Positions 1 through 12,383 of a DNA stretch of 15,691 bases are shown piece after piece. The DNA comes from a virus. Lineage: Duplodnaviria; Heunggongvirae; Uroviricota; Caudoviricetes. A program made the translations under genes and the position numbers. The stretch lies in the IMG/VR virus record IMGVR_UViG_2778261058_000019; one strand, written 5' to 3'. Under the pieces are notes generated by a model. The model saw only the letters and a list, made by a program, of their open reading frames with translations. It was not told the DNA's origin and ran no database searches. Positions within the stretch are counted from its first letter, which is position 1. Each line of letters opens with the position of its first letter.

Positions 1-114
1 TGGGTGGACTGGTATAACAATCGACGATTGCTGGAAAGGCTGGGCCATATTCCTCCGGCAGAAGCAGAAAAAGTTTATTATGCTTCCATCAGAAACGATG
101 ATCTGGCAGCCTGA
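1..114 (+). CDS. IS3-family transposase (OrfB/DDE type), C-terminal fragment; 5' end lies outside the window
   Basis: Frame 1 is open from base 1 to TGA at 112-114. Translation WVDWYNNRRLLERLGHIPPAEAEKVYYASIRNDDLAA looks like the C-terminal tail of IS3-family transposases; from memory closest to IS629/IS1203. Not verified by search. Confidence 0.6.
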   Translation, partial: WVDWYNNRRLLERLGHIPPAEAEKVYYASIRNDDLAA

Positions 115-156
115 GTTCACAGATAAAACACTCTCCAGGAAAACCGGGGCGGTTCA
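1..156 (+). mobile_element. Right end of an IS3-family insertion sequence (IS629/IS1203-like), with terminal inverted repeat ending ...GGGGCGGTTCA at 156
   Basis: After the transposase stop, bases 115-156 (GTTCACAGATAAAACACTCTCCAGGAAAACCGGGGCGGTTCA) end in CA as IS3-family termini do and match my recollection of the IS629 terminus. Homology to hokD begins immediately at 157. Confidence 0.5.
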
Positions 157-294
157 ATGTTAATCGCCCTGATCGTCATCTGTTTAACCGTCATAGTGAC
201 GGCACTGGTAACGAGGAAAGACCTCTGCGAGGTACGAATCCGAACCGGCCAGACGGAGGTCGCTGTCTTCACAGCTTACGAACCTGAGGAGTAA
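157..294 (+). CDS. hokD: Hok-family membrane toxin, N-terminally truncated (HokD/RelF residues 7-51)
   Basis: ATG 157 to TAA 292-294 encodes MLIALIVICLTVIVTALVTRKDLCEVRIRTGQTEVAVFTAYEPEE (45 aa), matching HokD as I recall it but without the first six residues MKQQKA. An in-frame stop at 124-126 lies inside the IS end, so no upstream start is available. Below the 60-aa cutoff of the ORF track. Confidence 0.7.
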   Translation: MLIALIVICLTVIVTALVTRKDLCEVRIRTGQTEVAVFTAYEPEE

Positions 295-362
295 GAGACC
301 CGGCGGGGGAGAAATCCCTCGCCACCTCTGATGTGGCAGGCATCCTCAACGCACCCGCACTT

Positions 363-389
363 AACCCGCTTCGGCGGGTTTTTGTTTTT
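363..389 (+). terminator. Rho-independent terminator downstream of hok
   Basis: Hairpin CCCGC-TTCG-GCGGG (365-378) followed by TTTTTGTTTTT. Confidence 0.65.
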
Positions 390-510
390 ATTTTCAACGC
401 GTTTGAAGTTCTGGACGGTGCCGGAATAGAATCAAAAATACTTAAGTAGCGCGCAGGGATAAGAGGGATGGTCCCTTAAAGGGGAGAGCTAATTATCCGG
501 AAGGATTCTG

Positions 511-762
511 ATGATGAACATCGAAGAACTGCGTAAAATTTTTTGTGAAGATGGCCTCTATGCTGTGTGCGTTGAAAATGGAAATCTTGTTAGTCATTAC
601 CGCATTATGTGTTTGCGAAAGAATGGGGCTGCGTTAATTAATTTTGTGGATGCTCGGGTCACGGACGGATTTATCTTGCGCGAAGGTGAGTTTGTCACTT
701 CATTACAGGCATTGAAAGAGATCGGAATAAAAGCTGGCTTTTCTGCTTTTTCAGGAGAATAA
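511..762 (+). CDS. rem: Rem, small prophage protein of unknown function (83 aa)
   Basis: ORF 511..762 with SD GGAAGGA at 499-505 five nt before the ATG. Length 83 aa and position between hokD and ydfU match the K-12 Qin layout from memory. Confidence 0.65.
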   Translation: MMNIEELRKIFCEDGLYAVCVENGNLVSHYRIMCLRKNGAALINFVDARVTDGFILREGEFVTSLQALKEIGIKAGFSAFSGE

Positions 763-828
763 ACTCATCTACAATCTTGCGCGGGGCTGAACTCCCGCTG
801 AGTAACACCGTGCCACCGGAGAAAACCG

Positions 829-1107
829 ATGGCACGCAACGCAAAATATTACAATTCTGATAATTCGCCCGTTCTTGCCTGCACGCACGGGCGGTATTCT
901 CACGCATTCAAGTCTGAATGGTTCCAGCACCCTCCATGCACTGCAGAACAGGCCGAATGGCTGATTCATTCTTACCGCAGGCGCGGGTTCGAGGTTAAGA
1001 AAGCTCTCAGTCTCGACTATCGGCACTGGATAATCTCTGTCAGGCTGCCTTATTCCGAACGCCCACCACGTGCGTCCCGCACTTTCCAGCAACGGATCTG
1101 GAGGTAA
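829..1107 (+). CDS. Hypothetical prophage protein (92 aa), translationally coupled to ydfU
   Basis: ATG 829 is preceded by GGAG at 818-821 (7-nt spacer). Stop TAA 1105-1107 overlaps the SD of the next gene, whose GTG is at 1109. No family recognised from the sequence. Confidence 0.45.
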   Translation: MARNAKYYNSDNSPVLACTHGRYSHAFKSEWFQHPPCTAEQAEWLIHSYRRRGFEVKKALSLDYRHWIISVRLPYSERPPRASRTFQQRIWR

Positions 1108-1108
1108 C

Positions 1109-2158
1109 GTGCGGGTATTACTTAGACCTGTTCTGGTGCCTGAGCTTGGGCTGGTGGTCCTTAAGCCGGGCCGTGAATCCATACAGATATTTCATAATCC
1201 TCGAGTGCTGGTGGAACCGGAACCAAAAAGCATGCGTAATCTGCCATCCGGAGTCGTTCCTGCCGTTCGCCAGCCGCTGGCGGAAGACAAAACATTGCTG
1301 CCGTTTTTTAGTAACGAACGGGTGATTCGTGCTGCTGGCGGCGTTGGCGCATTGTCCGACTGGCTATTACGTCATGTTACATCCTGCCAGTGGCCTAATG
1401 GCGATTACCATCACACTGAAACAGTCATTCACCGTTATGGTACCGGCGCAATGGTGTTGTGCTGGCACTGCGACAACCAACTGCGTGACCAGACATCGGA
1501 ATCACTGGAGCTGCTTGCTCAACAAAATCTGACAGCATGGGTGATTGACGTCATCCGTCACGCAATAAGCGGTACGCAGGAGCGGGAATTATCTTTGGCT
1601 GAATTATCCTGGTGGGCGGTCTGCAATCAGGTGGTGGATGCACTACCTGAGGCTGTATCGCGTCGTTCGCTGGGATTACCAGCGGAAAAAATCTGCTCGG
1701 TGTACCGCGAAAGCGACATCGTACCGGGAGAGCAGACCGCCACCAGCATATTGAAACAACGCACAAAAAATCTTGCACCGTTGCCTTACGCCCACCAGCA
1801 ACAAAAATCACCACAGGAAAAGACGGTGGTAAGCATCACCGTTGATCCAGAGTCTCCGGAATCTTTCATGAAGCTGCCTAAACGTCGCCGCTGGGTTAAG
1901 GAGAAATACACACGTTGGGTTAAGACACAGCCGTGTGCTTGCTGCGGTATGCCAGCCGACGATCCGCATCATCTGATTGGTCACGGGCAGGGCGGAATGG
2001 GAACAAAAGCACATGATCTCTTTGTGTTGCCTTTGTGCAGAAAGCATCACAACGAGCTGCATACGGATACAGTGGCATTTGAAGATAAGTATGGCTCCCA
2101 ACTGGAGCTGATATTTCGTTTTATCGATCGCGCGCTGGCAATTGGCGTACTGGCGTAA
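1109..2158 (+). CDS. ydfU: YdfU-like prophage protein (349 aa) with HNH-like Cys/His motif at the C-terminus
   Basis: Long ORF ending TAA 2156-2158. GTG 1109 follows GGAGG (1100-1104) and gives 349 aa, the length I recall for YdfU; the ORF track begins at an upstream ATG (1070, 362 aa). C-terminus reads CACCGMPADDPHHLIGH...CRKHHNELH. Confidence 0.65.
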   Translation: MRVLLRPVLVPELGLVVLKPGRESIQIFHNPRVLVEPEPKSMRNLPSGVVPAVRQPLAEDKTLLPFFSNERVIRAAGGVGALSDWLLRHVTSCQWPNGDYHHTETVIHRYGTGAMVLCWHCDNQLRDQTSESLELLAQQNLTAWVIDVIRHAISGTQERELSLAELSWWAVCNQVVDALPEAVSRRSLGLPAEKICSVYRESDIVPGEQTATSILKQRTKNLAPLPYAHQQQKSPQEKTVVSITVDPESPESFMKLPKRRRWVKEKYTRWVKTQPCACCGMPADDPHHLIGHGQGGMGTKAHDLFVLPLCRKHHNELHTDTVAFEDKYGSQLELIFRFIDRALAIGVLA

Positions 2159-2171
2159 GTGGAGAACGAGC

Positions 2172-2924
2172 ATGAACCTTGAAGCCTTACCAAAATATTA
2201 CTCCCCAAAATCTCCAAAATTGAGCGATGACGCTCCAGCGACAGGCACCGGTTGTTTAACAATTACGGATGTAATGGCAGCGCAGGGGATGGTGCAGTCG
2301 AAAGCACCACTTGGGTTGGCCTTATTTCTGGCAAAAGTTGGTGTTCAGGACCCTCAGTTTGCGATTGAAGGCCTGCTAAATTACGCGATGGCACTGGATA
2401 ACCCGACATTGAACAAATTGAGTGAAGAAATCCGGTTACAGATTATTCCTTACCTCGTGAGTTTTGCCTTTGCTGATTACTCCAGGTCTGCGGCAAGTAA
2501 GGCTCGCTGTGAGCATTGTTCAGGTACGGGATTTTATAATGTATTGCGCGAAGTGGTGAAACACTACAGACGCGGGGAATCTGTAATCAAGGAAGAATGG
2601 GTGAAGGAACTATGTCAGCATTGCCATGGTAAGGGCGAAGCCAGCACAGCGTGCAGAGGGTGTAAGGGTAAAGGGATTGTTCTGGATGAAAAAAGAACCC
2701 GGTTTCATGGCGTACCGGTATATAAGATTTGTGGGCGTTGTAATGGAAACCGGTTTAGTCGTTTACCGACCACGCTGGCACGACGTCATGTCCAGAAGCT
2801 GGTACCAGACCTGACCGATTATCAGTGGTATAAGGGGTATGCGGACGTCATTGGTAAACTGGTAACAAAGTGCTGGCAGGAAGAAGCATACGCGGAAGCG
2901 CAATTGAGGAAGGTGACGAGATAA
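2172..2924 (+). CDS. quuQ: Late-gene antiterminator Q homolog (250 aa) with four DnaJ-type CxxCxGxG repeats
   Basis: ATG 2172 follows GGAG (2161-2164) and gives 250 aa; the ORF track starts at an in-frame TTG at 2142. It sits just upstream of a promoter-plus-terminator module and the lysis genes, as Q does in lambdoid phages. Cys repeats are CEHCSGTG, CQHCHGKG, CRGCKGKG and CGRCNGN. Confidence 0.7.
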   Translation: MNLEALPKYYSPKSPKLSDDAPATGTGCLTITDVMAAQGMVQSKAPLGLALFLAKVGVQDPQFAIEGLLNYAMALDNPTLNKLSEEIRLQIIPYLVSFAFADYSRSAASKARCEHCSGTGFYNVLREVVKHYRRGESVIKEEWVKELCQHCHGKGEASTACRGCKGKGIVLDEKRTRFHGVPVYKICGRCNGNRFSRLPTTLARRHVQKLVPDLTDYQWYKGYADVIGKLVTKCWQEEAYAEAQLRKVTR

Positions 2925-2955
2925 ATGATTTTTGCTGAAGATGGCGACATGATGT

Positions 2956-2984
2956 TTGCATTTTTCAAAAAATATGGATAAAAT
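2956..2984 (+). promoter_or_regulatory. Candidate Q-dependent late promoter (PR'-like)
   Basis: TTGCAT (2956-2961), 17-bp spacer, TAAAAT (2979-2984), immediately after the Q homolog and about 45 nt before a strong terminator. This is the typical PR'-qut-tR' arrangement; called by eye only. Confidence 0.35.
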
Positions 2985-3030
2985 TTTTTCAACGATGGGC
3001 TTTGTATACCCGACGTTAAGAAAAAGTAGA

Positions 3031-3057
3031 AAACCCGCTGATGAGCGGGTTTTGTGC
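3031..3057 (+). terminator. Rho-independent terminator (tR'-like) after the candidate late promoter
   Basis: Hairpin AACCCGCT-GATG-AGCGGGTT followed by TTTGTGCTTT. Confidence 0.65.
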
Positions 3058-3345
3058 TTTAAATGGGGCAATGGTAATGTTGAATCTCATCCCGGGACTC
3101 ATGTCTGTTAACTTATTATTTAGCTGGTGACTTGGTTATTTGCCTGATGTTTAAAATGTTTTCTTCCAGTACAATGTCCCTAAACACAATGAGTCTGCTT
3201 ATTATATTATTAGCAGAGCTATTACGGCCAAAGTACAGCATAAGCTTTTAAAGCCAATCAACCAGTCATCAAGACAGACGGGGTTATTCATAAAAACTCT
3301 CCATGTGTGATCCGATGGGGCCTGAAATTAAAGCTTTAATATAGC

Positions 3346-3558
3346 TCATGAAAGGTAAACATTGGCAGCTGAAGGGCCACGCAGACCATTTATCCGGCAA
3401 AATTCCACGCGTAATCCGGTGGTAATTTCTTCTGCATCGCGGAGATTGAGCGCTGAAACATGAAGCTGGACATCGATACGACCATCGGATGGGGTGATAA
3501 GACCCTTGCCGCTTTTGCCGTCAAAGGTTTTGACAATTCCTGTCATTTTACGGGACAA
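3346..3558 (-). CDS. cspF: Cold-shock protein CspF (CspA family, 70 aa)
   Basis: Translation [26 protein letters not shown]...[16 protein letters not shown] is a cold-shock domain protein. The first codon is TTG at 3558-3556 with SD AAGGA six nt upstream; the first in-frame ATG (3546) would have an 18-nt spacing. Confidence 0.8.
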
Positions 3559-3858
3559 AAAAATTCCTTAATACTGATAACTTGGCGCACTATACACACG
3601 TTCCTGAAGAAAGCTATAGTTTTTTGATGGGGTTGAAGATGGCTGGATGTCTAAAATAAACATTGCTTCATATGTTCAACTATGCGTTAATGATTGCGTC
3701 GGTTTGAAGAACAGACGATATACGAAGTAGTTTACTAAAGCAGTTCTCATTTCAGGTGTTATTCACTTATTCCTTCTTTGAGTCTCTCCAATTAAGTACG
3801 AAGTCGTTTCTGTTATGCAAACCATTTATGCCGAAAGGCTCAAGTTAAGGAATGTAGA

Positions 3859-4074
3859 ATGTCAAATAAAATGACTGGTTTAGTAAAATGGTTTAACGCT
3901 GATAAAGGTTTCGGCTTTATTTCTCCTGTTGATGGTAGTAAAGATGTGTTTGTGCATTTTTCTGCGATTCAGAATGATAATTATCGAACCTTATTTGAAG
4001 GTCAAAAGGTTACCTTCTCTATAGAGAGTGGTGCTAAAGGTCCTGCAGCAGCAAATGTCATCATTACTGATTAA
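3859..4074 (+). CDS. cspB: Cold-shock protein CspB (CspA family, 71 aa)
   Basis: [38 protein letters not shown]... carries the cold-shock domain RNP motifs KGFGFI and VFVHF. SD AAGGA at 3847-3851, ATG at 3859. Confidence 0.9.
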
Positions 4075-4356
4075 AATTCATCGCTCGTCTGTATACGATA
4101 ACGAAGAAGGCTGATGCCTGAGTAGAGATACGGACAGAGTAGTGAATATTGGATCTCTTTAATAAAAAGTAAGGAGGTCCAATACATGAAACAATGGCTA
4201 GCATATTTGGCAAAATCTTAATCAGGAAAAGTATGCTAACCATTGTGGTGAAGTGCAGGTTTGCTGCATGAATAGTTTTACAGCAGAAGCTAACTGCTGG
4301 CATGGCAAAACAAAGTGCGTAAGTGGATGACTCCCACAAAAAGCACCACAATCTCA

Positions 4357-4378
4357 AACCCGCTCAGGCGGGTTTTTT
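4357..4378. terminator. Rho-independent terminator, probably bidirectional (cspB transcript and the convergent zinc-ribbon gene)
   Basis: Hairpin AACCCGC-TCAG-GCGGGTT followed by TTTTTT on the + strand, with an A-run upstream that gives a U-run on the - strand. Confidence 0.65.
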
Positions 4379-4437
4379 ATTATCTGCTTTAAATATATTA
4401 TTAAAATATAAAAAATACTTGTTACTAATAAAATCAA

Positions 4438-4608
4438 TCAGGCTACAGCTTTAAGATTTGTCTGGAATACTTTGTTGCAATGAGGGCAGATCAAAAGGGC
4501 ACCTTTTTGTACTCTTGAAAAACTGTGTTCTGACTCTTGGGTGCAGTTTGGGCAGGAACATTTAACGAGATAATTACGGCGTGATTTTGAGTTTTTACGT
4601 TCTGACAT
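4438..4608 (-). CDS. ynfU: Small zinc-ribbon protein (56 aa; CxCxxC...CxxC)
   Basis: ATG at 4608-4606 is preceded by AGGA about 8 nt upstream. Product MSERKNSKSRRNYLVKCSCPNCTQESEHSFSRVQKGALLICPHCNKVFQTNLKAVA. The track's 73-aa version starts at an upstream ATG with no SD. The symbol ynfU (56-aa zinc-binding protein in Qin) is from memory and is uncertain. Confidence 0.5.
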   Translation of the reverse strand: MSERKNSKSRRNYLVKCSCPNCTQESEHSFSRVQKGALLICPHCNKVFQTNLKAVA

Positions 4609-4827
4609 AGGCTTTTCCTGTATAAATGGCCGTATACAGTACACTAAATATGAAAACATTTCTCGTATTATTATTTTATATATGACTTTCTTTCAAAATA
4701 ATTACCCACATTTTTAATGTGTATGTTTTTTTAGCGCCGTTGAGAACAACGTGTGCTGTCAAAACTACCCCGTAGACTCCGATCTTTTCAAACATATTGC
4801 ACCATCCGTGTACATCGGGGTGAGGAT

Positions 4828-5043
4828 ATGAAATCAATGGATAAGTTAACAACAGGTGTTGCCTATGGCACATCGGCGGGTAATGCTGGTTTCTGGGCAT
4901 TGCAGTTACTCGATAAAGTAACTCCGTCACAGTGGGCTGCAATCGGTGTGCTGGGTAGCCTGGTTTTTGGCCTGCTGACGTATCTGACAAATCTTTATTT
5001 CAAGATTAAAGAAGACAGGCGTAAGGCTGCGAGAGGAGAGTAA
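4828..5043 (+). CDS. essQ: Class II pinholin, S21-like (71 aa), with dual-start motif MKSM
   Basis: [71 protein letters not shown] closely resembles the phage 21 pinholin as I recall it. Met1 and Met4 give the holin/antiholin dual start. A GGGGTGAGGA SD precedes; the ORF track starts 25 codons upstream at an ATG with no SD. Confidence 0.85.
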
Positions 5044-5047
5044 TCCA

Positions 5048-5355
5048 ATGACTCAAGACTATGAACTGGTTGTGAAAGGAGTCCGTAATTTTGAGAATAA
5101 AGTTACGGTAACTGTAGCCTTACAGGACAAAGAACGCTTTGACGGTGAAATTTTTGACCTGGATGTCGCCATGGACCGTGTTGAAGGAGCTGCGCTGGAG
5201 TTTTATGAGGCAGCAGCCAGAAGGAGCGTCCGGCAAGTCTTCCTGGAAGTAGCAGAAAAATTGTCAGAAAAAGTTGAGTCTTATCTGCAGCATCAGTACT
5301 CCTTTAAGATTGAAAATCCTGCCAATAAGCACGAGCGTCCTCATCATAAATATCT

Positions 5356-5359
<4 letters not shown>
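5048..5359 (+). CDS. ydfR: YdfR-like protein (103 aa) inserted between holin and endolysin
   Basis: ORF with strong SD GAGAGGAGAG (5031-5040); stop TGA 5357-5359 overlaps the endolysin ATG (ATGA). Function unknown. Confidence 0.7.
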
Positions 5360-6383
<1,024 letters not shown>

Positions 6384-6609
6384 GGTAATATTAAATCGGA
6401 ACATTTACATCGCGGAATGTAAAATTTAAATAAAAAGGACTCTTCCATGAGCCAAAATTCCTGAAATCTTAAGGGTAAGATAAAAGGTCTTAATCAGAAT
6501 GACACGTTTTATTAATAAATAAAGCTATTCTTTCATTGCTGTGTTTTTCTTTACAAAAGTAATCCTTGCTATGGGTGGTTAATCATGCGTTAATGGTGTT
6601 CTGGTTTGT

Positions 6610-6642
6610 TACAAATTTATCTGAAGCAGTCATTGTTATAAT
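6610..6642 (+). promoter_or_regulatory. Candidate cspI promoter (perfect -10 TATAAT at 6637-6642, weak -35, AT-rich upstream)
   Basis: TATAAT lies about 100 nt upstream of the cspI ATG, consistent with the long 5' UTRs of cspA-family genes. Called by eye; low confidence. Confidence 0.3.
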
Positions 6643-6745
6643 TTTATTATTTGTACCTCTTGAGATTTCCTTGTTGGTTTTTCTCTCTGATATTTTTTTT
6701 CGGACCATTCTGCCCAAGGGCTAATTTCTTCAAAAGGTAATAATT

Positions 6746-6958
6746 ATGTCTAACAAAATGACTGGTTTAGTGAAATGGTTTAACCCTGAAAAAGGTTTTG
6801 GTTTCATCACGCCGAAAGATGGCAGCAAAGATGTGTTTGTCCATTTCTCAGCAATTCAGAGCAACGATTTCAAAACATTAACTGAGAATCAGGAAGTTGA
6901 ATTTGGTATTGAGAACGGACCTAAAGGTCCTGCCGCTGTTCATGTAGTGGCGCTTTGA
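6746..6958 (+). CDS. cspI: Cold-shock protein CspI (CspA family, 70 aa)
   Basis: [38 protein letters not shown]... is a cold-shock domain protein and a close paralog of the cspB copy at 3859. Confidence 0.9.
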
Positions 6959-7163
6959 GGTAGACAATATTACAAACCATATTCACTTTAGATGCCCGTG
7001 TTGTCATGGTTCCCAGTATAGAACATCATCTTTTGATGTTTCTGACATGAATCCTTTCGGGGCAAAATGTATCTTTTGTAAATCAATGATGATTACATTT
7101 GATAATATTTCACAATACTTAAATGCCAGCCGTCTGTCGTTGGATTTAAAAAAGTGAAAATGA

Positions 7164-7186
7164 AGGCTCCTTCGGGAGCTTTTTTG
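7164..7186 (+). terminator. Rho-independent terminator ending the cspI transcript
   Basis: Hairpin GCTCC-TTCG-GGAGC followed by TTTTTT, about 200 nt after the cspI stop and right after the stop of a small Cys-rich reading frame. Confidence 0.65.
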
Positions 7187-7304
7187 CTTGGTGTCTATTC
7201 GATGGATACTCACATACTACGGTAACATCATGAAAAAAATCATAGTTTTTTTTAACTCTGAACCAGCAGTGGTAGTGCCAGCGATGACTGGAGTTAACAC
7301 CATC

Positions 7305-7460
7305 ATGCGTGAATATCCAAATGGCGAAAAAACACACCTTACTGTAATGGCCGCAGGGTTTCCATCTCTGACCGGAGATCATAAAGTCATTTATGTAGCC
7401 GCGGATCGACATGTTACTTCAGAAGAAATTCTGGAAGCAGCAATAAGGCTCTTGAGTTGA
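7305..7460 (+). CDS. ynfN: YnfN-like small protein (51 aa from ATG 7305; a 76-aa form from ATG 7230 is possible)
   Basis: ORF ending TGA 7458-7460. GGAG at 7290-7293 precedes ATG 7305, giving the 51 aa I recall for YnfN. In-frame upstream ATGs at 7284 and 7230 cannot be excluded. Confidence 0.45.
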   Translation: MREYPNGEKTHLTVMAAGFPSLTGDHKVIYVAADRHVTSEEILEAAIRLLS

Positions 7461-7554
7461 TTTGATGCTATTGCATTGATAATTCAGGAAAATTCTCTTT
7501 GTCTGTTTGTGTAAAATTTAGACTATCGTATGTTGATTATTGCGATGTTTCATC

Positions 7555-7583
7555 TTATCTTTTACACGTTTGCACCATATAAT
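7555..7583 (+). promoter_or_regulatory. Candidate sigma-70 promoter for gnsB
   Basis: TTATCT (7555-7560), 17-bp spacer, perfect TATAAT (7578-7583), about 50 nt upstream of the gnsB ATG. Confidence 0.4.
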
Positions 7584-7631
7584 CGACTTACTGTGTAACT
7601 GGAAAGTCATAACAGACTAAAAGAGGAAATG

Positions 7632-7804
7632 ATGAATATTGAAAACTTAAAAACAAAAGCAGAAGCAGATATTTCTGAATATATAACAAAAAAATTATTG
7701 AACTTAAGAAAAAGACCGGGAAAGAAGTTACCAGTATTCAGTTTACCGCACGGGAAAAAATGACGGGTCTTGAAAGCTATGATGTCAAGATTAATTTAAT
7801 CTGA
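7632..7804 (+). pseudogene. gnsB: gnsB (GnsA/GnsB family), disrupted by a -1 frameshift in an A7 tract
   Basis: From ATG 7632 the frame reads MNIENLKTKAEADISEYITKK, then runs through the A-run at 7688-7694 to a stop at 7761-7763 (43 aa). The next frame continues IIELKKKTGKEVTSIQFTAREKMTGLESYDVKINLI to TGA 7802-7804. Joined, the two parts align without gaps to the 57-aa GnsA/GnsB pattern as I recall it, which needs A8 rather than A7. Confidence 0.6.
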
Positions 7805-7833
7805 TGTATTCAATAATAAAATTTATCCATAAA

Positions 7834-7856
7834 CCTCGTTTTTACGGGGTTTTGTT
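7834..7856 (+). terminator. Weak rho-independent terminator after gnsB
   Basis: Hairpin CCTCG-TTTTTA-CGGGG (one G-U pair) followed by TTTTGTT. Confidence 0.4.
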
Positions 7857-7955
7857 ATATTTGAATGGTTCCGAATATCTAAATCACAATTGTTGATGGT
7901 TTTTATTAAACCAATGCAGTCCGGCTCAGGAGTGAGAGAAGCCGGACGTTATGGT

Positions 7956-8366
7956 TTAGCGTGGTAAGATCTGTGTAGTTTTCTGGATGCTTTCAGTAAA
8001 TAGTAATGAATTATCAAAGGTATAGTAATATCTTTTTTGTTCGTGGATATTTGTAACCCACCGAAAAACTCCTGCTTTAGCAAGGTTTCTTCTGTATTCC
8101 TGAAATGTGATCTCTCTGGATTTCAGCTTATTAGAGGTCGTTTCTATAAGATGCCTATCCTTTGAAAATTTGACAGACACAATGTTTTTTAGGCCCTTTA
8201 ATAACACTGTATTATCATTTTTTAATACAATATGAACATTCTCTGTGGCTAAATAGTAAATGTAATGTGAGACATTGTGACGTTTTAGCTCAGAATAAAA
8301 CCATTGATAGTTTAAATCGTTTCGAACTTTATCAAATATTTGTTTAAAAATGACTACCTGATCCAT
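7956..8366 (-). CDS. ydfO: YdfO-like protein (DUF1398-type, 136 aa)
   Basis: Minus-strand ORF. ATG at 8366-8364 is preceded by GGAAGG about 7 nt upstream and gives 136 aa (MDQVVIFKQ...); the track's 141-aa start at 8381 has no SD. A stem-loop at 7919-7947 lies just past the stop. Confidence 0.65.
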
Positions 8367-8423
8367 AGATAAACCTTCCATGTGATATGAGGGGGCGTAG
8401 TCTGCACGATTATCTAAATTGCT

Positions 8424-8657
8424 TCAATCTGGTCTGACCTGTTTTCTGAGCAATTCAGTAATGTCACTCTTTTCTTTGTTTGCTTCAGAAGAAACTCTTT
8501 TTTCTGAGCACAGTCTCCGGCGGCAGGCTTCAATGACCCAGGCTGAGAAATTCCCGGACCCTTTTTGCTCAAGAGCGATGTTAATTTGTTCAATCATTTG
8601 GTTAGGAAAGCGGATGTTGCGGGTTGTTGTTCTGCGGGTTCTGTTCTTCGTTGACAT
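8424..8657 (-). CDS. ynfO: YnfO-like small protein (77 aa), predicted ribbon-helix-helix DNA-binding fold
   Basis: Minus-strand ORF 57 nt upstream of ydfO on the same strand. Arg-rich N-terminus, then NIRFPNQMIEQINIALEQKG...NFSAWVIEACRRRL, which looks like a strand-helix-helix (Arc/CopG-like) pattern. Fold assignment is inference. Confidence 0.6.
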   Translation of the reverse strand: MSTKNRTRRTTTRNIRFPNQMIEQINIALEQKGSGNFSAWVIEACRRRLCSEKRVSSEANKEKSDITELLRKQVRPD

Positions 8658-8829
8658 GAGGTTGCCCCGTATTCAGTGTCGCTGATTTGTATTGTCTGAA
8701 GTTGTTTTTACGTTAAGTTGATGCAGATCAATTAATACGATACCTGCGTCATAATTGATTATTTGACGTGGTTTGATGGCCTCCACGCACGTTGTGATAT
8801 GTAGATGATAATCATTATCACTTTACGGG

Positions 8830-9040
8830 TCCTTTCCGGTGATCCGACAGGTTACGGGGCGGCGACCTCGCGGGTTTTCGCTATTTATGAAAATTTTCCG
8901 GTTTAAGGCATTTCCGTTCTTCTTCGTCGTAACTTAATGTTTTTATTTAAAATACCCCCTGAAAAGAAAGGAAACGACAGGTGCTGAAAACGAGCTTTTG
9001 GGCCTCTGTCGTTTCCTTTCTCTGTTTTTGGCCGTGGAAT
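8830..9040 (+). other. Lambda-type cos site (cosQ-cosN-cosB); 12-nt cohesive end GGGCGGCGACCT at 8857-8868
   Basis: Bases 8841-8880 read GATCCGACAGGTTACG|GGGCGGCGACCTCGCGGGTTTTCG, the fused right and left ends of phage lambda as I recall them. The roughly 170 bp upstream also resemble the lambda right end, and the downstream region leads into Nu1. Confidence 0.85.
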
Positions 9041-9045
9041 GAACA

Positions 9046-9591
9046 ATGGAAGTCAACAAAAAGCAGCTGGCTGACATTTTCGGTGCGAGTATCCGTACCA
9101 TTCAGAACTGGCAGGAACAGGGAATGCCCGTTCTGCGAGGCGGTGGCAAGGGTAATGAGGTGCTTTATGACTCTGCCGCCGTTATAAGATGGTATGCCGA
9201 AAGGGATGCTGAAATTGAGAACGAAAAGCTGCGCCGGGAAGTTGAAGAACTGCGGCAGGCCAGCGAGACAGATCTCCAGCCAGGGACTATTGAGTACGAA
9301 CGCCATCGACTTACGCGTGCGCAGGCCGACGCACAGGAGCTGAAAAATGCCAGAGACTCCGCTGAAGTGGTGGAAACCGCATTCTGTACTTTCGTGCTGT
9401 CGCGGATCGCAGGTGAAATTGCCAGTATTCTCGACGGGATCCCCCTGTCGGTGCAGCGGCGTTTTCCGGAACTGGAAAACCGACATGTTGATTTCCTGAA
9501 ACGGGATATCATCAAAGCCATGAACAAAGCAGCCGCGCTGGATGAACTGATACCGGGGTTGCTGAGTGAATATATCGAACAGTCAGGTTAA
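9046..9591 (+). CDS. nohQ: Terminase small subunit Nu1 homolog (181 aa), apparently full length
   Basis: MEVNKKQLADIFGASIRTIQNWQEQGMPVLRGGGKGNEVLYDSAAVIRWYAERDAEIEN... is essentially lambda gpNu1 with its N-terminal helix-turn-helix. The 3' end overlaps the start of the terminase A reading frame as in lambda. Symbol by analogy with Qin (nohA/nohQ). Confidence 0.85.
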   Translation: MEVNKKQLADIFGASIRTIQNWQEQGMPVLRGGGKGNEVLYDSAAVIRWYAERDAEIENEKLRREVEELRQASETDLQPGTIEYERHRLTRAQADAQELKNARDSAEVVETAFCTFVLSRIAGEIASILDGIPLSVQRRFPELENRHVDFLKRDIIKAMNKAAALDELIPGLLSEYIEQSG

Positions 9592-11242
9592 CAGGCTGCG
9601 GCATTTTGTCCGCGCCGGGCTTCGCTCACTGTTCAGGCCGGAGCCACAGACCGCCGTTGAATGGGCGGATGCTAATTACTATCTCCCGAAAGAATCCGCA
9701 TACCAGGAAGGGCGCTGGGAAACACTGCCCTTTCAGCGGGCCATCATGAATGCGATGGGCAGCGACTACATCCGTGAGGTGAATGTGGTGAAGTCTGCCC
9801 GTGTCGGTTATTCCAAAATGCTGCTGGGTGTTTATGCCTACTTTATAGAGCATAAGCAGCGCAACACCCTTATCTGGTTGCCGACGGATGGTGATGCCGA
9901 GAACTTTATGAAAACCCACGTTGAGCCGACCATCCGCGATATTCCGTCGCTGCTGGCGCTGGCTCCGTGGTATGGCAAAAAGCACCGGGATAACACGCTC
10001 ACTATGAAGCGTTTTTCCAATGGTCGTGGCTTCTGGTGCCTGGGCGGTAAAGCGGCAAAAAACTACCGTGAAAAGTCGGTGGATGTGGCGGGTTATGATG
10101 AACTTGCTGCCTTTGATGAGGATATTGAACAGGAAGGCTCTCCGACGTTCCTTGGCGACAAACGTATTGAAGGCTCGGTCTGGCCAAAGTCCATCCGTGG
10201 CTCCACGCCCAAAGTGAGAGGCACCTGCCAGATTGAGCGTGCAGCCAGTGAATCCCTGCATTTTATGCGTTTTCATGTTGCCTGCCCGCACTGCGGGGAG
10301 GAGCAGTATCTTAAATTTGGCGACAAAGAGACGCCGTTTGGCCTCAAATGGACGCCGGATGACCCCTCTAGCGTGTTTTATCTCTGCGAGCATAATGCCT
10401 GCGTCATCCGCCAGCAGGAGCTGGACTTTACTGATGCCCGTTATATCTGCGAAAAGACCGGGATCTGGACCCGTGATGGCATTCTCTGGTTTTCGTCATC
10501 CGGTGAAGAGATTGAGCCGCCGGACAGTGTGACCTTTCACATCTGGACGGCGTACAGCCCGTTCACCACCTGGGTGCAGATTGTCAAAGACTGGATGAAG
10601 ACGAAAGGGGATACGGGAAAACGTAAAACCTTCGTGAACACCACGCTCGGTGAGACATGGGAAGCGAAAATCGGCGAACGTCCGGATGCTGAGGTGATGG
10701 CGGAGCGGAAAGAGCATTATTCAGCGCCCGTTCCTGACCGTGTGGCTTACCTGACCGCCGGTATCGACTCCCAGCTGGACCGCTACGAAATGCGCGTATG
10801 GGGATGGGGGCCGGGTGAGGAAAGCTGGCTGATTGACCGGCAGATTATTATGGGTCGCCACGACGATGAACAGACGCTGCTGCGTGTGGATGAGGCCATC
10901 AATAAAACCTATACCCGCCGGAATGGTGCAGAAATGTCGGTATCCCGTATCTGCTGGGATACTGGCGGGATTGACCCGACCATTGTGTATGAACGCTCGA
11001 AAAAACATGGGCTGTTCCGGGTGATCCCCATTAAAGGGGCATCCGTCTACGGAAAGCCGGTGGCCAGCATGCCACGTAAGCGAAACAAAAACGGGGTTTA
11101 CCTTACCGAAATCGGTACGGATACCGCGAAAGAGCAGATTTATAACCGCTTCACACTGACGCCGGAAGGGGATGAACCGCTTCCCGGTGCCGTTCACTTC
11201 CCGAATACCCGAAACTTGCAGTTGCTTATCCGTCAGGCGTGA
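9566..11242 (+). pseudogene. Terminase large subunit (gpA-like), 3'-truncated by a deletion; 558 codons with a short out-of-frame tail
   Basis: GTG 9566 starts MNISNSQVNRLRHFVRAGLRSLFRPEPQTAVEWADANYYLPKES..., which follows lambda gpA (641 aa) as I recall it up to ...LPGAVHFPN near 11207. The frame then reads [11 protein letters not shown] and stops at 11240-11242, so the C-terminal ~90 residues of gpA are missing. Confidence 0.85.
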
Positions 11243-11808
11243 TCCCTGATATGCGTGGCTGGACGATTAAGGGCAAGCCCGCCAGTGGTCGGGCCGTATT
11301 ATCTCAGGAACAGGACGGCATTAAATCGCACACCCACAGCGCCAGCGCATCCAGTACGGATTTGGGGACGAAAACCACATCGTCGTTTGATTACGGAACC
11401 AAATCCACGAATAACACCGGGGCGCATACCCATAGTATTAGCGGGACCGCAAATAGTGCCGGTGCGCACCAACACAAGAGTTCCGGTGCATTTGGTGGCA
11501 CGAACACGAGCATTTTCCCTAATGGTTATACCGCGATTTCAAATCTAAGCGCGGGGATTATGAGCACAACAAGCGGTAGTGGCCAGATTCGTAATGCAGG
11601 GAAGACATCATCAGATGGTGCTCATACCCACTCGCTGTCCGGCACTGCTGCAAGCGCAGGCGCACATGCACATACTGTCGGTATTGGTGCTCATACGCAC
11701 TCCGTTGCGATTGGTTCACATGGACACACCATCACCGTTAACGCTGCTGGTAACGCGGAAAACACCGTCAAAAACATCGCATTTAACTATATTGTGAGGC
11801 TTGCATAA
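11239..11808 (+). CDS. stfQ: Side tail fiber protein (Stf-like), C-terminal fragment (up to 189 aa) with GAHTHS-type repeats
   Basis: This frame is open from 11176 and already reads [28 protein letters not shown]... across the junction. The first possible starts are GTG 11239 and ATG 11251, with no clear SD. His/Gly/Ala-rich repeats (GAHTHS, GAHQH, GAHAH) are typical of lambda-type side tail fiber C-termini. May be an unexpressed remnant. Confidence 0.6.
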
Positions 11809-12383
11809 TGGCATTCAGAATGAGTGAACAACCACGGACCATAAAAATTTATAATCTGCTGGCCGGAACTAATGAATTTATTGGTGAAGGTGATGCATAT
11901 ATTCCGCCTCATACAGGTCTGCCAGCAAACAGTACCGATATTGCACCGCCAGATATTCCGGCTGGCTTCGTGGCTGTTTTCAACAGTGATGAGTCATCGT
12001 GGCATCTCGTTGAAGATCATCGGGGTAAAACGGTTTATGACGTGGCTTCCGGCGACGCGTTATTTATTTCTGAACTCGGTCCGTTACCGGAAAATGTTAC
12101 CTGGTTATCGCCGGAAGGGGAGTTTCAGAAGTGGAACGGCACAGTCTGGGTGAAGGATACGGAAGCAGAAAAACTGTTCCGGATCCGGGAGGCGGAAGAA
12201 ACAAAAAACAACCTGATGCAGGTAGCCAGTGAGCATATTGCGCCGCTTCAGGATGTTGCAGATCTGGAAATTGCAACGGAGGAAGAAATCTCGTTGCTGG
12301 AAGCATGGAAAAAGTATCGGGTATTGCTGAACCGTGTTGATACGTCAACTGCACAGGATATTGAATGGCCAGCACTGCCGTAG
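11808..12383 (+). CDS. tfaQ: Tail fiber assembly protein (lambda Tfa-like, 191 aa)
   Basis: ATG overlaps the stf stop (TAATG). [54 protein letters not shown]... matches lambda Tfa as I recall it. Confidence 0.85.

What the first reader, a model, noticed from the sequence alone, without database searches (positions are those of the whole stretch)
7632..7804. gnsB homolog broken by a single-base deletion in a homopolymeric A tract
Reading from ATG 7632, the frame runs through an A7 run (7688-7694) and terminates early after 43 codons. One extra A would restore a 57-aa protein that aligns end to end with the GnsA/GnsB family. Such tracts are hotspots for replication or transcriptional slippage, so this could be a true inactivating mutation, a slippage-prone switch, or an assembly error.
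Basis: seen in the sequence. Interest (0 to 1): 0.45.

Follow-up and report, generated by a model that had tools for sequence, protein, structure and literature searches.

The report
gnsB broken by one-base deletion
A small prophage gene of E. coli (gnsB) has lost one A from a run of eight, which truncates the protein; the deletion is real and recurs in about 2-4% of strains, but it is an ordinary pseudogene that annotation pipelines already flag.

Summary
The run at 7688-7694 is A7, the frame from ATG 7632 stops after 43 codons, and one extra A restores a 57-aa protein identical to E. coli K-12 GnsB (Pfam PF08178, full length).

The deletion is real, not an assembly error. I traced the window to draft contig NLNZ01000029.1. 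A second deposited assembly and an independent Logan short-read assembly of the same lineage are 100% identical to it, A7 included. The nearest relative differs in 8,674 bp only by having A8.

Across public data A7 is a minority allele: 41 of about 1,576 complete genomes, 1 of 54 metagenome contigs, and about 3.7% of index blocks. It sits on at least five haplotype backgrounds, so it arose repeatedly. Within lineages it is stable: all 12 genomes of one clone carry it.

A control A8 run 1.7 kb away is contracted in only 0.4% of genomes.

I found no programmed-frameshift signal. There is no downstream structure, and the great majority of copies, every intact one I examined included, are a single A8 ORF.

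NCBI's pipeline already marks these copies 'frameshifted'.

Verdict: an ordinary, recurrent replication-slippage pseudogene in a decaying Qin-type prophage. Low-level rescue by slippage on A_AAA_AAA is possible but untested.

The parts
7622..7627 (+). Shine-Dalgarno-like AGAGGA in front of the gnsB start codon
   Evidence: Read directly from the sequence. It lies 4 nt upstream of ATG 7632, the start annotated in K-12.
7632..7763 (+). Truncated gnsB reading frame as encoded: 43 codons plus TGA. Residues 1-21 are native GnsB and residues 22-43 are out of frame.
   Evidence: Pfam PF08178 matches only profile positions 1-32 of 54. This exact 43-aa product is on at least 1,000 public contigs.
7688..7694 (+). 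A7 tract, the site of the one-base deletion (ancestral A8). In frame 0 it reads as the slippery heptamer A_AAA_AAA.
   Evidence: A8 is present in K-12 and about 1,530 complete genomes. The only indel between the window and its nearest relatives is here.
7679..7804 (+). Open -1 frame carrying the ancestral C-terminal part of GnsB (IIELKKKTGKEVTSIQFTAREKMTGLESYDVKINLI) up to the original stop TGA 7802-7804.
   Evidence: frame 2. Some RefSeq annotations call this stretch a 41-aa protein, WP_349812768.1, starting at ATA 7679.
7831..7862 (+). Intrinsic-terminator-like hairpin plus T-rich tail downstream of gnsB
   Evidence: 9-pair stem, 4-nt loop, followed by TGTTATATTT.

Best explanation
This is gnsB of a Qin-type cryptic lambdoid prophage of E. 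coli, inactivated by a genuine, recent one-base deletion (A8 to A7). The most likely cause is strand slippage during DNA replication on the homopolymer. The gene now encodes a 43-aa peptide that keeps only the first 21 native residues and lacks the conserved C-terminal core (FTAREKMTGLESYDVKI), so GnsB function is most likely lost. The same contraction has happened independently in several E. coli lineages and is then inherited stably. That is the expected behaviour of an 8-base run in a dispensable prophage gene under weak selection. Shown here: the deletion, its reality, its recurrence and its stability. Inferred: replication slippage as the cause, and loss of function.
For: Anatomy. Context: the window is a Qin-type prophage with the same gene order as K-12.

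Reality: the window is contig NLNZ01000029.1 of GCA_002229985.1. GCA_002229605.1 and the Logan assembly of run SRR3989737 are 100% identical over 11.3 kb and 8.0 kb, A7 included. GCA_054857115.1 differs in 8,674 bp only by A8. In 15.5 kb the window has no other homopolymer indel against close relatives.

Frequency: A7 in 41 complete genomes, A8 in about 1,530, A9 in 4-5. Index blocks are 2,217 for the truncated product against 58,140 for the intact one. Metagenome contigs are 1 A7 to 53 A8.

Recurrence: A7 occurs on at least five haplotype backgrounds. On the two backgrounds that also contain sampled A8 copies, the nearest A8 is 0-2 SNPs away.

Inheritance: 12 complete genomes of one IS3-marked clone all carry A7; four members fetched, three of them from China, Mali and Thailand, differ by one SNP in 16 kb.

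Control: the same-strand A8 run in rzpQ is contracted in only 6 of 1,503 genomes. That bounds the error rate. Fisher p = 2e-7, or 1e-4 after collapsing obvious clones.

Literature: A/T runs are prone to replication slippage (PMC1088944; PMC4066793). Overexpressed GnsA or GnsB raises unsaturated fatty acids; this is a dosage phenotype and no essential role is described.
Against: I could not inspect any reads, so agreement between assemblies is the only evidence for the base call. Some A7 calls elsewhere are clearly errors: L006, L008, L011 and probably ER1709 carry additional rare homopolymer contractions. Loss of function is inferred from loss of the conserved half, not measured. The 6.7-fold excess over the rzpQ control could mean selection for loss rather than neutrality.
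Confidence: 0.86

Rival explanations
1. Sequencing or assembly error: the true genome has A8, and the A7 is a homopolymer under-call.
For: Homopolymer under-calls do occur at this site in other assemblies. VE-V11-M and UTAK-1 carry both the gnsB and the rzpQ contraction. L011 has five homopolymer contractions in 3 kb. ER1709, a K-12 derivative, has A7 plus a second T-run contraction.
Against: Three separately produced assemblies of the window's lineage agree on A7 with 100% identical flanks. The window has no other homopolymer indel in 15.5 kb. The contig starts inside a multi-copy IS element, which is typical of short-read drafts, and those rarely miscall an 8-mer. The control A8 run bounds the error rate at about 0.4% against 2.6% observed.
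Confidence: 0.04
2. Phase-variable (contingency) switch: the A tract toggles gnsB on and off at high frequency, and selection uses this.
For: The same tract varies repeatedly and in both directions: A7 in 41 genomes, A9 in 4-5. A7 appears on several backgrounds. Contraction is 6.7 times more frequent than in a matched A8 run. The neighbouring gene ynfN is also frameshifted at an 8-base run in K-12.
Against: There is no heterogeneity within clones: 12 of 12 are A7 in the IS3-marked clone, and all three assemblies of the window's lineage are A7. About 96-98% of copies are A8. Eight bases is short for an A/T contingency tract. GnsB is a small cytoplasmic protein, not a surface or restriction function. 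The imbalance of 41 contractions to 5 expansions fits one-way decay better than toggling.
Confidence: 0.07
3. Recoding: the A7 allele is still expressed, because -1 ribosomal frameshifting on A_AAA_AAA, or insertion of an A by RNA polymerase, yields authentic 57-aa GnsB as a regulated second product.
For: In frame 0 the tract is a perfect X_XXY_YYZ heptamer. A -1 slip there, or one extra A in the mRNA, gives exactly the ancestral protein. A_AA.A_AA.A is listed among heptamers with more than 0.10% in vivo -1 frameshifting without stimulators, and it is common in IS elements (PMC4066793). Transcript slippage can rescue frameshifted genes at A/T runs (PMC1088944).
Against: There is no stimulator. 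The 71 nt downstream fold more weakly than shuffled sequence (z = +1.67), and there is no Shine-Dalgarno-like element upstream. The two-frame arrangement is not conserved: all intact copies examined, including the divergent allele, are single A8 ORFs. Efficient transcript slippage is reported mainly for runs of 9 or more. Any rescue would therefore be incidental, at roughly the per-cent level or below.
Confidence: 0.03

Closest known systems
gnsB (ydfY, b1550) of the E. coli K-12 Qin prophage; UniProt GNSB_ECOLI, RefSeq WP_001019606.1
   Same: Same locus and neighbours: cspI, ymcF, ynfR and ynfN upstream, ydfO downstream. The DNA is 99.7% identical over 301 bp, and the repaired protein is identical.
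   Different: K-12 has A8 and an intact 57-aa ORF. The window has A7 and a 43-aa truncated ORF.
RefSeq/PGAP 'GnsA/GnsB family addiction module toxin, frameshifted' pseudogenes (for example in ER1709, GZ04-0086, MLI108K2)
   Same: The same A7 allele, identical over the 76-bp and 301-bp queries, already flagged as a frameshifted pseudogene.
   Different: None at the gnsB site itself. The window's lineage has its own private markers: R126L in rrrQ, an IS3-family insertion in hokD, and a terminase/tail-fibre deletion junction.
GnsA (yccL), solved structures 4XO1 and 4XO2
   Same: The same Pfam family, PF08178. The repaired protein aligns over residues 1-56, with the C-terminal FTAREKMTGLESYDVKI identical.
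   Different: It is a paralogue at a different, non-prophage locus (cspG-ymcF-ymcE-gnsA). At the equivalent protein position it reads AQKIAE instead of TKKIIE.
Frameshift-restorable pseudogenes at A/T runs (Baranov et al. 2005, PMC1088944) and A_AAA_AAA/G frameshift sites of IS elements and dnaX (Sharma et al. 2014, PMC4066793)
   Same: A homopolymeric A run sits at the overlap of two frames, and one slip restores the full protein.
   Different: The run here is 7 bases, below the 9 at which slippage is usually efficient. It has no stimulatory structure, and the arrangement is not conserved among homologues.

Membership tests
GnsA/GnsB family (Pfam PF08178) | Full-length match to the 54-position family profile in a protein of about 57 aa | tested here: not met
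   As encoded, the 43-aa product matches profile positions 1-32 only (50.4 bits), and only residues 1-21 are native. The repaired 57-aa sequence matches 1-54 of 54, 120.3 bits, E = 3e-35. The gene is a member by descent, but its product is not a complete member.
GnsA/GnsB family (Pfam PF08178) | Conserved C-terminal core FTAREKMTGLESYDVKI | tested here: not met
   The core is present in the DNA, but only in the -1 frame (7679-7804). It is absent from the frame-0 product.
gnsB orthologue of the Qin-type prophage | Position between ynfN and ydfO, downstream of cspI, in a Qin-type prophage, with near-identical DNA | tested here: met
   Gene order and 99.7-100% DNA identity to annotated gnsB loci.
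Type II toxin-antitoxin 'addiction module toxin' (the name used in annotation) | Demonstrated toxicity, and a cognate antitoxin encoded next to it | not testable with these tools
   This is only a database name. K-12 has an intact gnsB beside a frameshifted ynfN, so ynfN is not an obligatory antitoxin. The papers I read describe lipid-composition phenotypes on overexpression.
Programmed -1 ribosomal frameshift site | Slippery heptamer X_XXY_YYZ in the zero frame at the overlap of the two frames | tested here: met
   A_AAA_AAA at 7688-7694. A -1 slip gives the exact ancestral protein.
Programmed -1 ribosomal frameshift site | A stimulatory element: a downstream hairpin or pseudoknot, or an upstream Shine-Dalgarno-like sequence | tested here: not met
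   Downstream 41 nt and 71 nt fold at -0.8 and -4.5 kcal/mol, weaker than shuffles (z = +1.29 and +1.67). The upstream 30 nt contain no GGAGG-like element.
Programmed -1 ribosomal frameshift site | The two-frame organisation is conserved among homologues | tested here: not met
   About 96-98% of copies are a single A8 ORF, including the 94.6%-identical allele and all three species-representative genomes.
Phase-variable contingency locus (homopolymer switch) | Tract length differs among members of one clone or culture | tested here: not met
   12 of 12 complete genomes of the IS3-marked clone carry A7, and all three assemblies of the window's lineage carry A7. Heterogeneity within a culture could not be tested without reads.
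Phase-variable contingency locus (homopolymer switch) | Recurrent, independent length changes at the same tract across lineages | tested here: met
   A7 on at least five haplotype backgrounds, and A9 in 4-5 genomes.
Assembly artefact | Not reproducible in independent assemblies, or accompanied by other homopolymer indels | tested here: not met
   Reproduced in L088 and L090. There is no other homopolymer indel in 15.5 kb.

The most novel reading that the evidence does not exclude
The A8 tract of gnsB is a selected mutational off-switch. On this reading, loss of GnsB, a cold-shock-cluster protein that shifts membrane lipids toward unsaturated fatty acids when overexpressed, is advantageous in some niches. 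That would explain why this run is contracted about 5-7 times more often than a matched A8 run nearby. A7 strains might also keep a trickle of full-length GnsB through -1 slippage on A_AAA_AAA.
Probability: 0.1. Interest if true: 0.3.

Novelty: already known. Interest (0 to 1): 0.1.

Why it matters
It matters little beyond bookkeeping. It shows that this gnsB copy should be annotated as a frameshifted pseudogene. It should not be annotated as a 43-aa 'GnsB' or as a 41-aa C-terminal 'toxin', and both of those labels exist in public databases. It is also a clean example of one 8-base run breaking independently in many E. coli lineages, which is useful as a caution against treating such indels as either phylogenetic markers or automatic sequencing errors. 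If the excess over the control run reflected selection, it would hint that GnsB is costly in some settings, but nothing here demonstrates that.

Tried and rejected
1. Looking for the window's source among complete E. coli genomes failed. The best hit was 99.8%, and none had both the private SNP at 5732 and A7. The apparent '100.0%' hits still carried one mismatch, as the bit scores showed. The source was found instead by an exact look-up of the R126L lysozyme variant.

2. The scan of species-representative genomes did not find the source. It returned only three A8 copies, one of them on a mis-binned 'Veillonella' scaffold.

3. A programmed-frameshift reading was considered and rejected, because there is no stimulator and the arrangement is not conserved.

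4. I considered ynfN as an antitoxin partner whose state might correlate with gnsB. K-12 has a broken ynfN with an intact gnsB, the window has the reverse, and the 25 loci show no consistent pairing, so I did not pursue it.

5. Rfam found no RNA family overlapping gnsB on either strand.

6. I did not run structure prediction or the large protein-homology searches. The family assignment was already unambiguous, and they would not have changed the verdict.

Full report
**1.

The window has exactly seven A's at 7688-7694, with C before and T after. From ATG 7632 the frame gives 21 native residues (MNIENLKTKAEADISEYITKK) and then 22 out-of-frame residues, and it stops at TGA 7761-7763, which is 43 codons. 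The -1 frame is open from 7679 to TGA 7802-7804 and carries the rest of the protein.

Inserting one A yields MNIENLKTKAEADISEYITKKIIELKKKTGKEVTSIQFTAREKMTGLESYDVKINLI. This matches Pfam PF08178 over its whole length, E = 3e-35, and aligns over residues 1-56 with the solved GnsA structures 4XO1 and 4XO2. It is identical to the protein that public sources name GnsB of E. coli.

ATG 7632 is the start annotated in K-12. An AGAGGA sits just upstream, and a terminator-like hairpin follows at 7831-7852.

**2. Context**

The window is a Qin-type cryptic lambdoid prophage. In order it carries rem, ydfU, ydfT, cspF, cspB, essD, ydfR, rrrQ, rzpQ, cspI, ymcF, ynfR, ynfN, gnsB, ydfO (minus strand), ynfO, nohA, a truncated terminase large subunit fused to a tail-fibre remnant, tfaQ, pinQ, ydfK and ydfJ. 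So this is gnsB itself, not just a homologue.

Over 9.4 kb the window differs from K-12 at four positions: two SNPs, the ynfN T-run, and the gnsB A-run.

**3. The A7 is real in this genome**

Against its closest complete-genome relatives (MLI105 and WP2-S18-ESBL-08, both 99.8%), the only indel within the aligned blocks, which together cover about 15.5 kb, is the gnsB run; one further gap sits at the edge of the terminase/tail-fibre deletion junction. All other differences are SNPs.

The window has a private non-synonymous SNP in the lysozyme gene, 5732 T, giving R126L. Looking up that exact protein across public assemblies found four places:

- **L087**, contig NLNZ01000029.1 of GCA_002229985.1, is 100% identical to window 1-11889 from contig position 1. 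This is the source.
- **L088**, from GCA_002229605.1, is 100% identical over 11,298 bp and has A7.
- **L090**, a Logan assembly of run SRR3989737, is 100% identical over 8,020 bp and has A7.
- **L089**, from GCA_054857115.1, differs from the window in 8,674 bp by a single thing: A8 instead of A7.

The contig begins inside a multi-copy IS3-family element, which is where short-read assemblies break. An assembly artefact is therefore very unlikely. The deletion is also very young, because its nearest A8 relative is otherwise identical.

**4. How common it is**

| Data set | A7 | A8 | A9 |
|---|---|---|---|
| 5,426 complete E. coli genomes (exact 76-bp match) | 41 | about 1,530 | 4-5 |
| Metagenome contigs | 1 | 53 | 0 |
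| Index blocks (43-aa against 57-aa product) | 2,217 | 58,140 | not counted |

The 43-aa product lies on at least 1,000 contigs from NCBI, ENA, JGI and Logan. The three species-representative genomes that contain the tract all have A8. So does a divergent intact allele that is 94.6% identical. I found no intact copy with A7 and a compensating change.

**5. Error, recurrence or inheritance**

Some A7 calls in other assemblies are probably errors.

- L011 has five homopolymer contractions in 3 kb.
- L006 and L008 also carry the rare rzpQ contraction.
- VE-V11-M and UTAK-1 appear in both the gnsB and the rzpQ contraction lists.
- ER1709, a K-12 derivative, has a second T-run contraction.

A matched control bounds the size of this effect. 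The A8 run in rzpQ lies on the same strand 1.7 kb away and is contracted in only 6 of 1,503 genomes, or 0.4%, against 2.6% at gnsB. The odds ratio is 6.7 with p = 2e-7, and p is still 1e-4 after collapsing obvious clones. Most A7 calls are therefore real.

A7 occurs on at least five haplotype backgrounds of the surrounding 3-kb core: K-12-like, a group about 83 SNPs away, L005, L006 and L051. CX12 looks like another. On the two backgrounds that also contain sampled A8 copies (K-12-like and the 83-SNP group), the nearest A8 copy is 0-2 SNPs away; for L005 and L006 the nearest sampled A8 copy is 26 and 42 SNPs away. So the contraction has arisen repeatedly.

Once present, it is inherited stably. 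Twelve complete genomes share an IS3 insertion in rrrQ, and all of them carry A7 while none carries A8. Four members of this clone that I fetched, three of them from China, Mali and Thailand, differ by one SNP in 16 kb.

**6. Mechanism**

The simplest account is replication slippage on an 8-base run, giving a frameshift that removes the conserved half of a 57-aa protein.

A/T runs of this length are described as hypermutable, and they are under-represented in E. coli genes for that reason (PMC4066793; PMC1088944).

What is reported for GnsB is a dosage phenotype. Overexpression raises unsaturated fatty acids and suppresses fabA6(Ts), secG-null and (p)ppGpp-deficient fadR growth defects. Loss of a prophage copy is therefore plausibly tolerated.

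Replication slippage as the cause and loss of function as the result are inferences. The deletion itself, its reality, its recurrence and its stability are shown.

**7. Could it still be expressed?**

In frame 0 the tract is A_AAA_AAA. A -1 ribosomal slip there, or one extra A added by RNA polymerase, would give exactly the ancestral protein. Sharma et al. list this heptamer among those with more than 0.10% frameshifting without stimulators. Baranov et al. find efficient transcript slippage mainly at 9 or more bases, and occasionally at 8.

There is no stimulator here. The downstream 41 nt and 71 nt fold more weakly than shuffled sequence (z = +1.29 and +1.67), and there is no upstream Shine-Dalgarno-like element. 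The two-frame arrangement is also the rare state, not the conserved one. Any rescue would be incidental and small.

**8. Comparison with what is known, and verdict**

NCBI's pipeline already labels these copies 'GnsA/GnsB family addiction module toxin, frameshifted'. In some newer records it instead calls a 41-aa C-terminal fragment starting at ATA 7679. UniProt and GenBank hold the 43-aa form under the name GnsB.

This is an already known, ordinary frameshift pseudogene in a decaying prophage. The only mildly notable point is that the same run has broken independently many times, and more often than a matched control run. That could reflect relaxed or positive selection for loss, but it is not evidence of a switch.

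Noticed in passing
window 1-156 (junction at 156/157): The window, and its source contig, begins inside the 3' end of a multi-copy IS3-family element (transposase C-terminus ...WVDWYNNRRLLERLGHIPPAEAEKVYYASIRNDDLAA*, then the element's end). The element is inserted in hokD, and the relB-relE-hokD start found in relatives is missing.
   Followed up: partly
window 7230-7460, T-run 7246-7253: ynfN is intact here (T8, 76 aa). K-12 has T7 there, and RefSeq flags its ynfN as 'frameshifted'. T7 is in 417 of 1,477 complete genomes, and the rows listed are K-12 laboratory derivatives. So two adjacent small genes each carry an 8-base run that is broken in some lineages.
   Followed up: partly
window 9566-11242 and about 11205-11250: The terminase large-subunit ORF is truncated to 558 aa and joined to a tail-fibre remnant by a deletion of about 3 kb relative to strain MLI105. 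This junction is shared only with the window's own lineage (L087, L088, L090) and differs from the deletions in K-12 and WP2-S18-ESBL-08.
   Followed up: partly
window 5732 (rrrQ codon 126): A private non-synonymous SNP, CGG to CTG (R126L), in the prophage lysozyme. It was found in only five contigs of the public collection, and it served as the lineage marker that identified the source.
   Followed up: yes
window 6600-6985; T-run 6693-6700: A full-length match to the Rfam cspA thermoregulator (RF01766, 112.8 bits) lies in front of and over cspI. The T8 run inside it is T7 in 127 of 2,101 complete genomes, including O157:H7 493/89 and ATCC 25922.
   Followed up: no
window 7679-7804, as annotated in L027 and L028: Public annotation of the A7 allele is inconsistent. 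It appears as a 'frameshifted' pseudogene, as a 43-aa or 44-aa 'GnsB', or as a 41-aa 'GnsA/GnsB family addiction module toxin' (WP_349812768.1) that starts at a non-canonical ATA codon.
   Followed up: partly
L031 (JAGZPX010000007.1): A scaffold of a metagenome-assembled genome labelled Veillonella parvula carries 4 kb of E. coli Qin-type prophage, 97.7% identical to the window and including an A8 gnsB. This is almost certainly a binning contaminant sitting in a species-representative genome.
   Followed up: no
L001 (ER1709, NZ_CP030240.1), equivalent to window 2984-2989 and 7688-7694: This K-12 laboratory derivative differs from other K-12 records in 16 kb by two homopolymer contractions, a T-run and the gnsB A-run. 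That pattern suggests consensus errors in the assembly, not real mutations.
   Followed up: no
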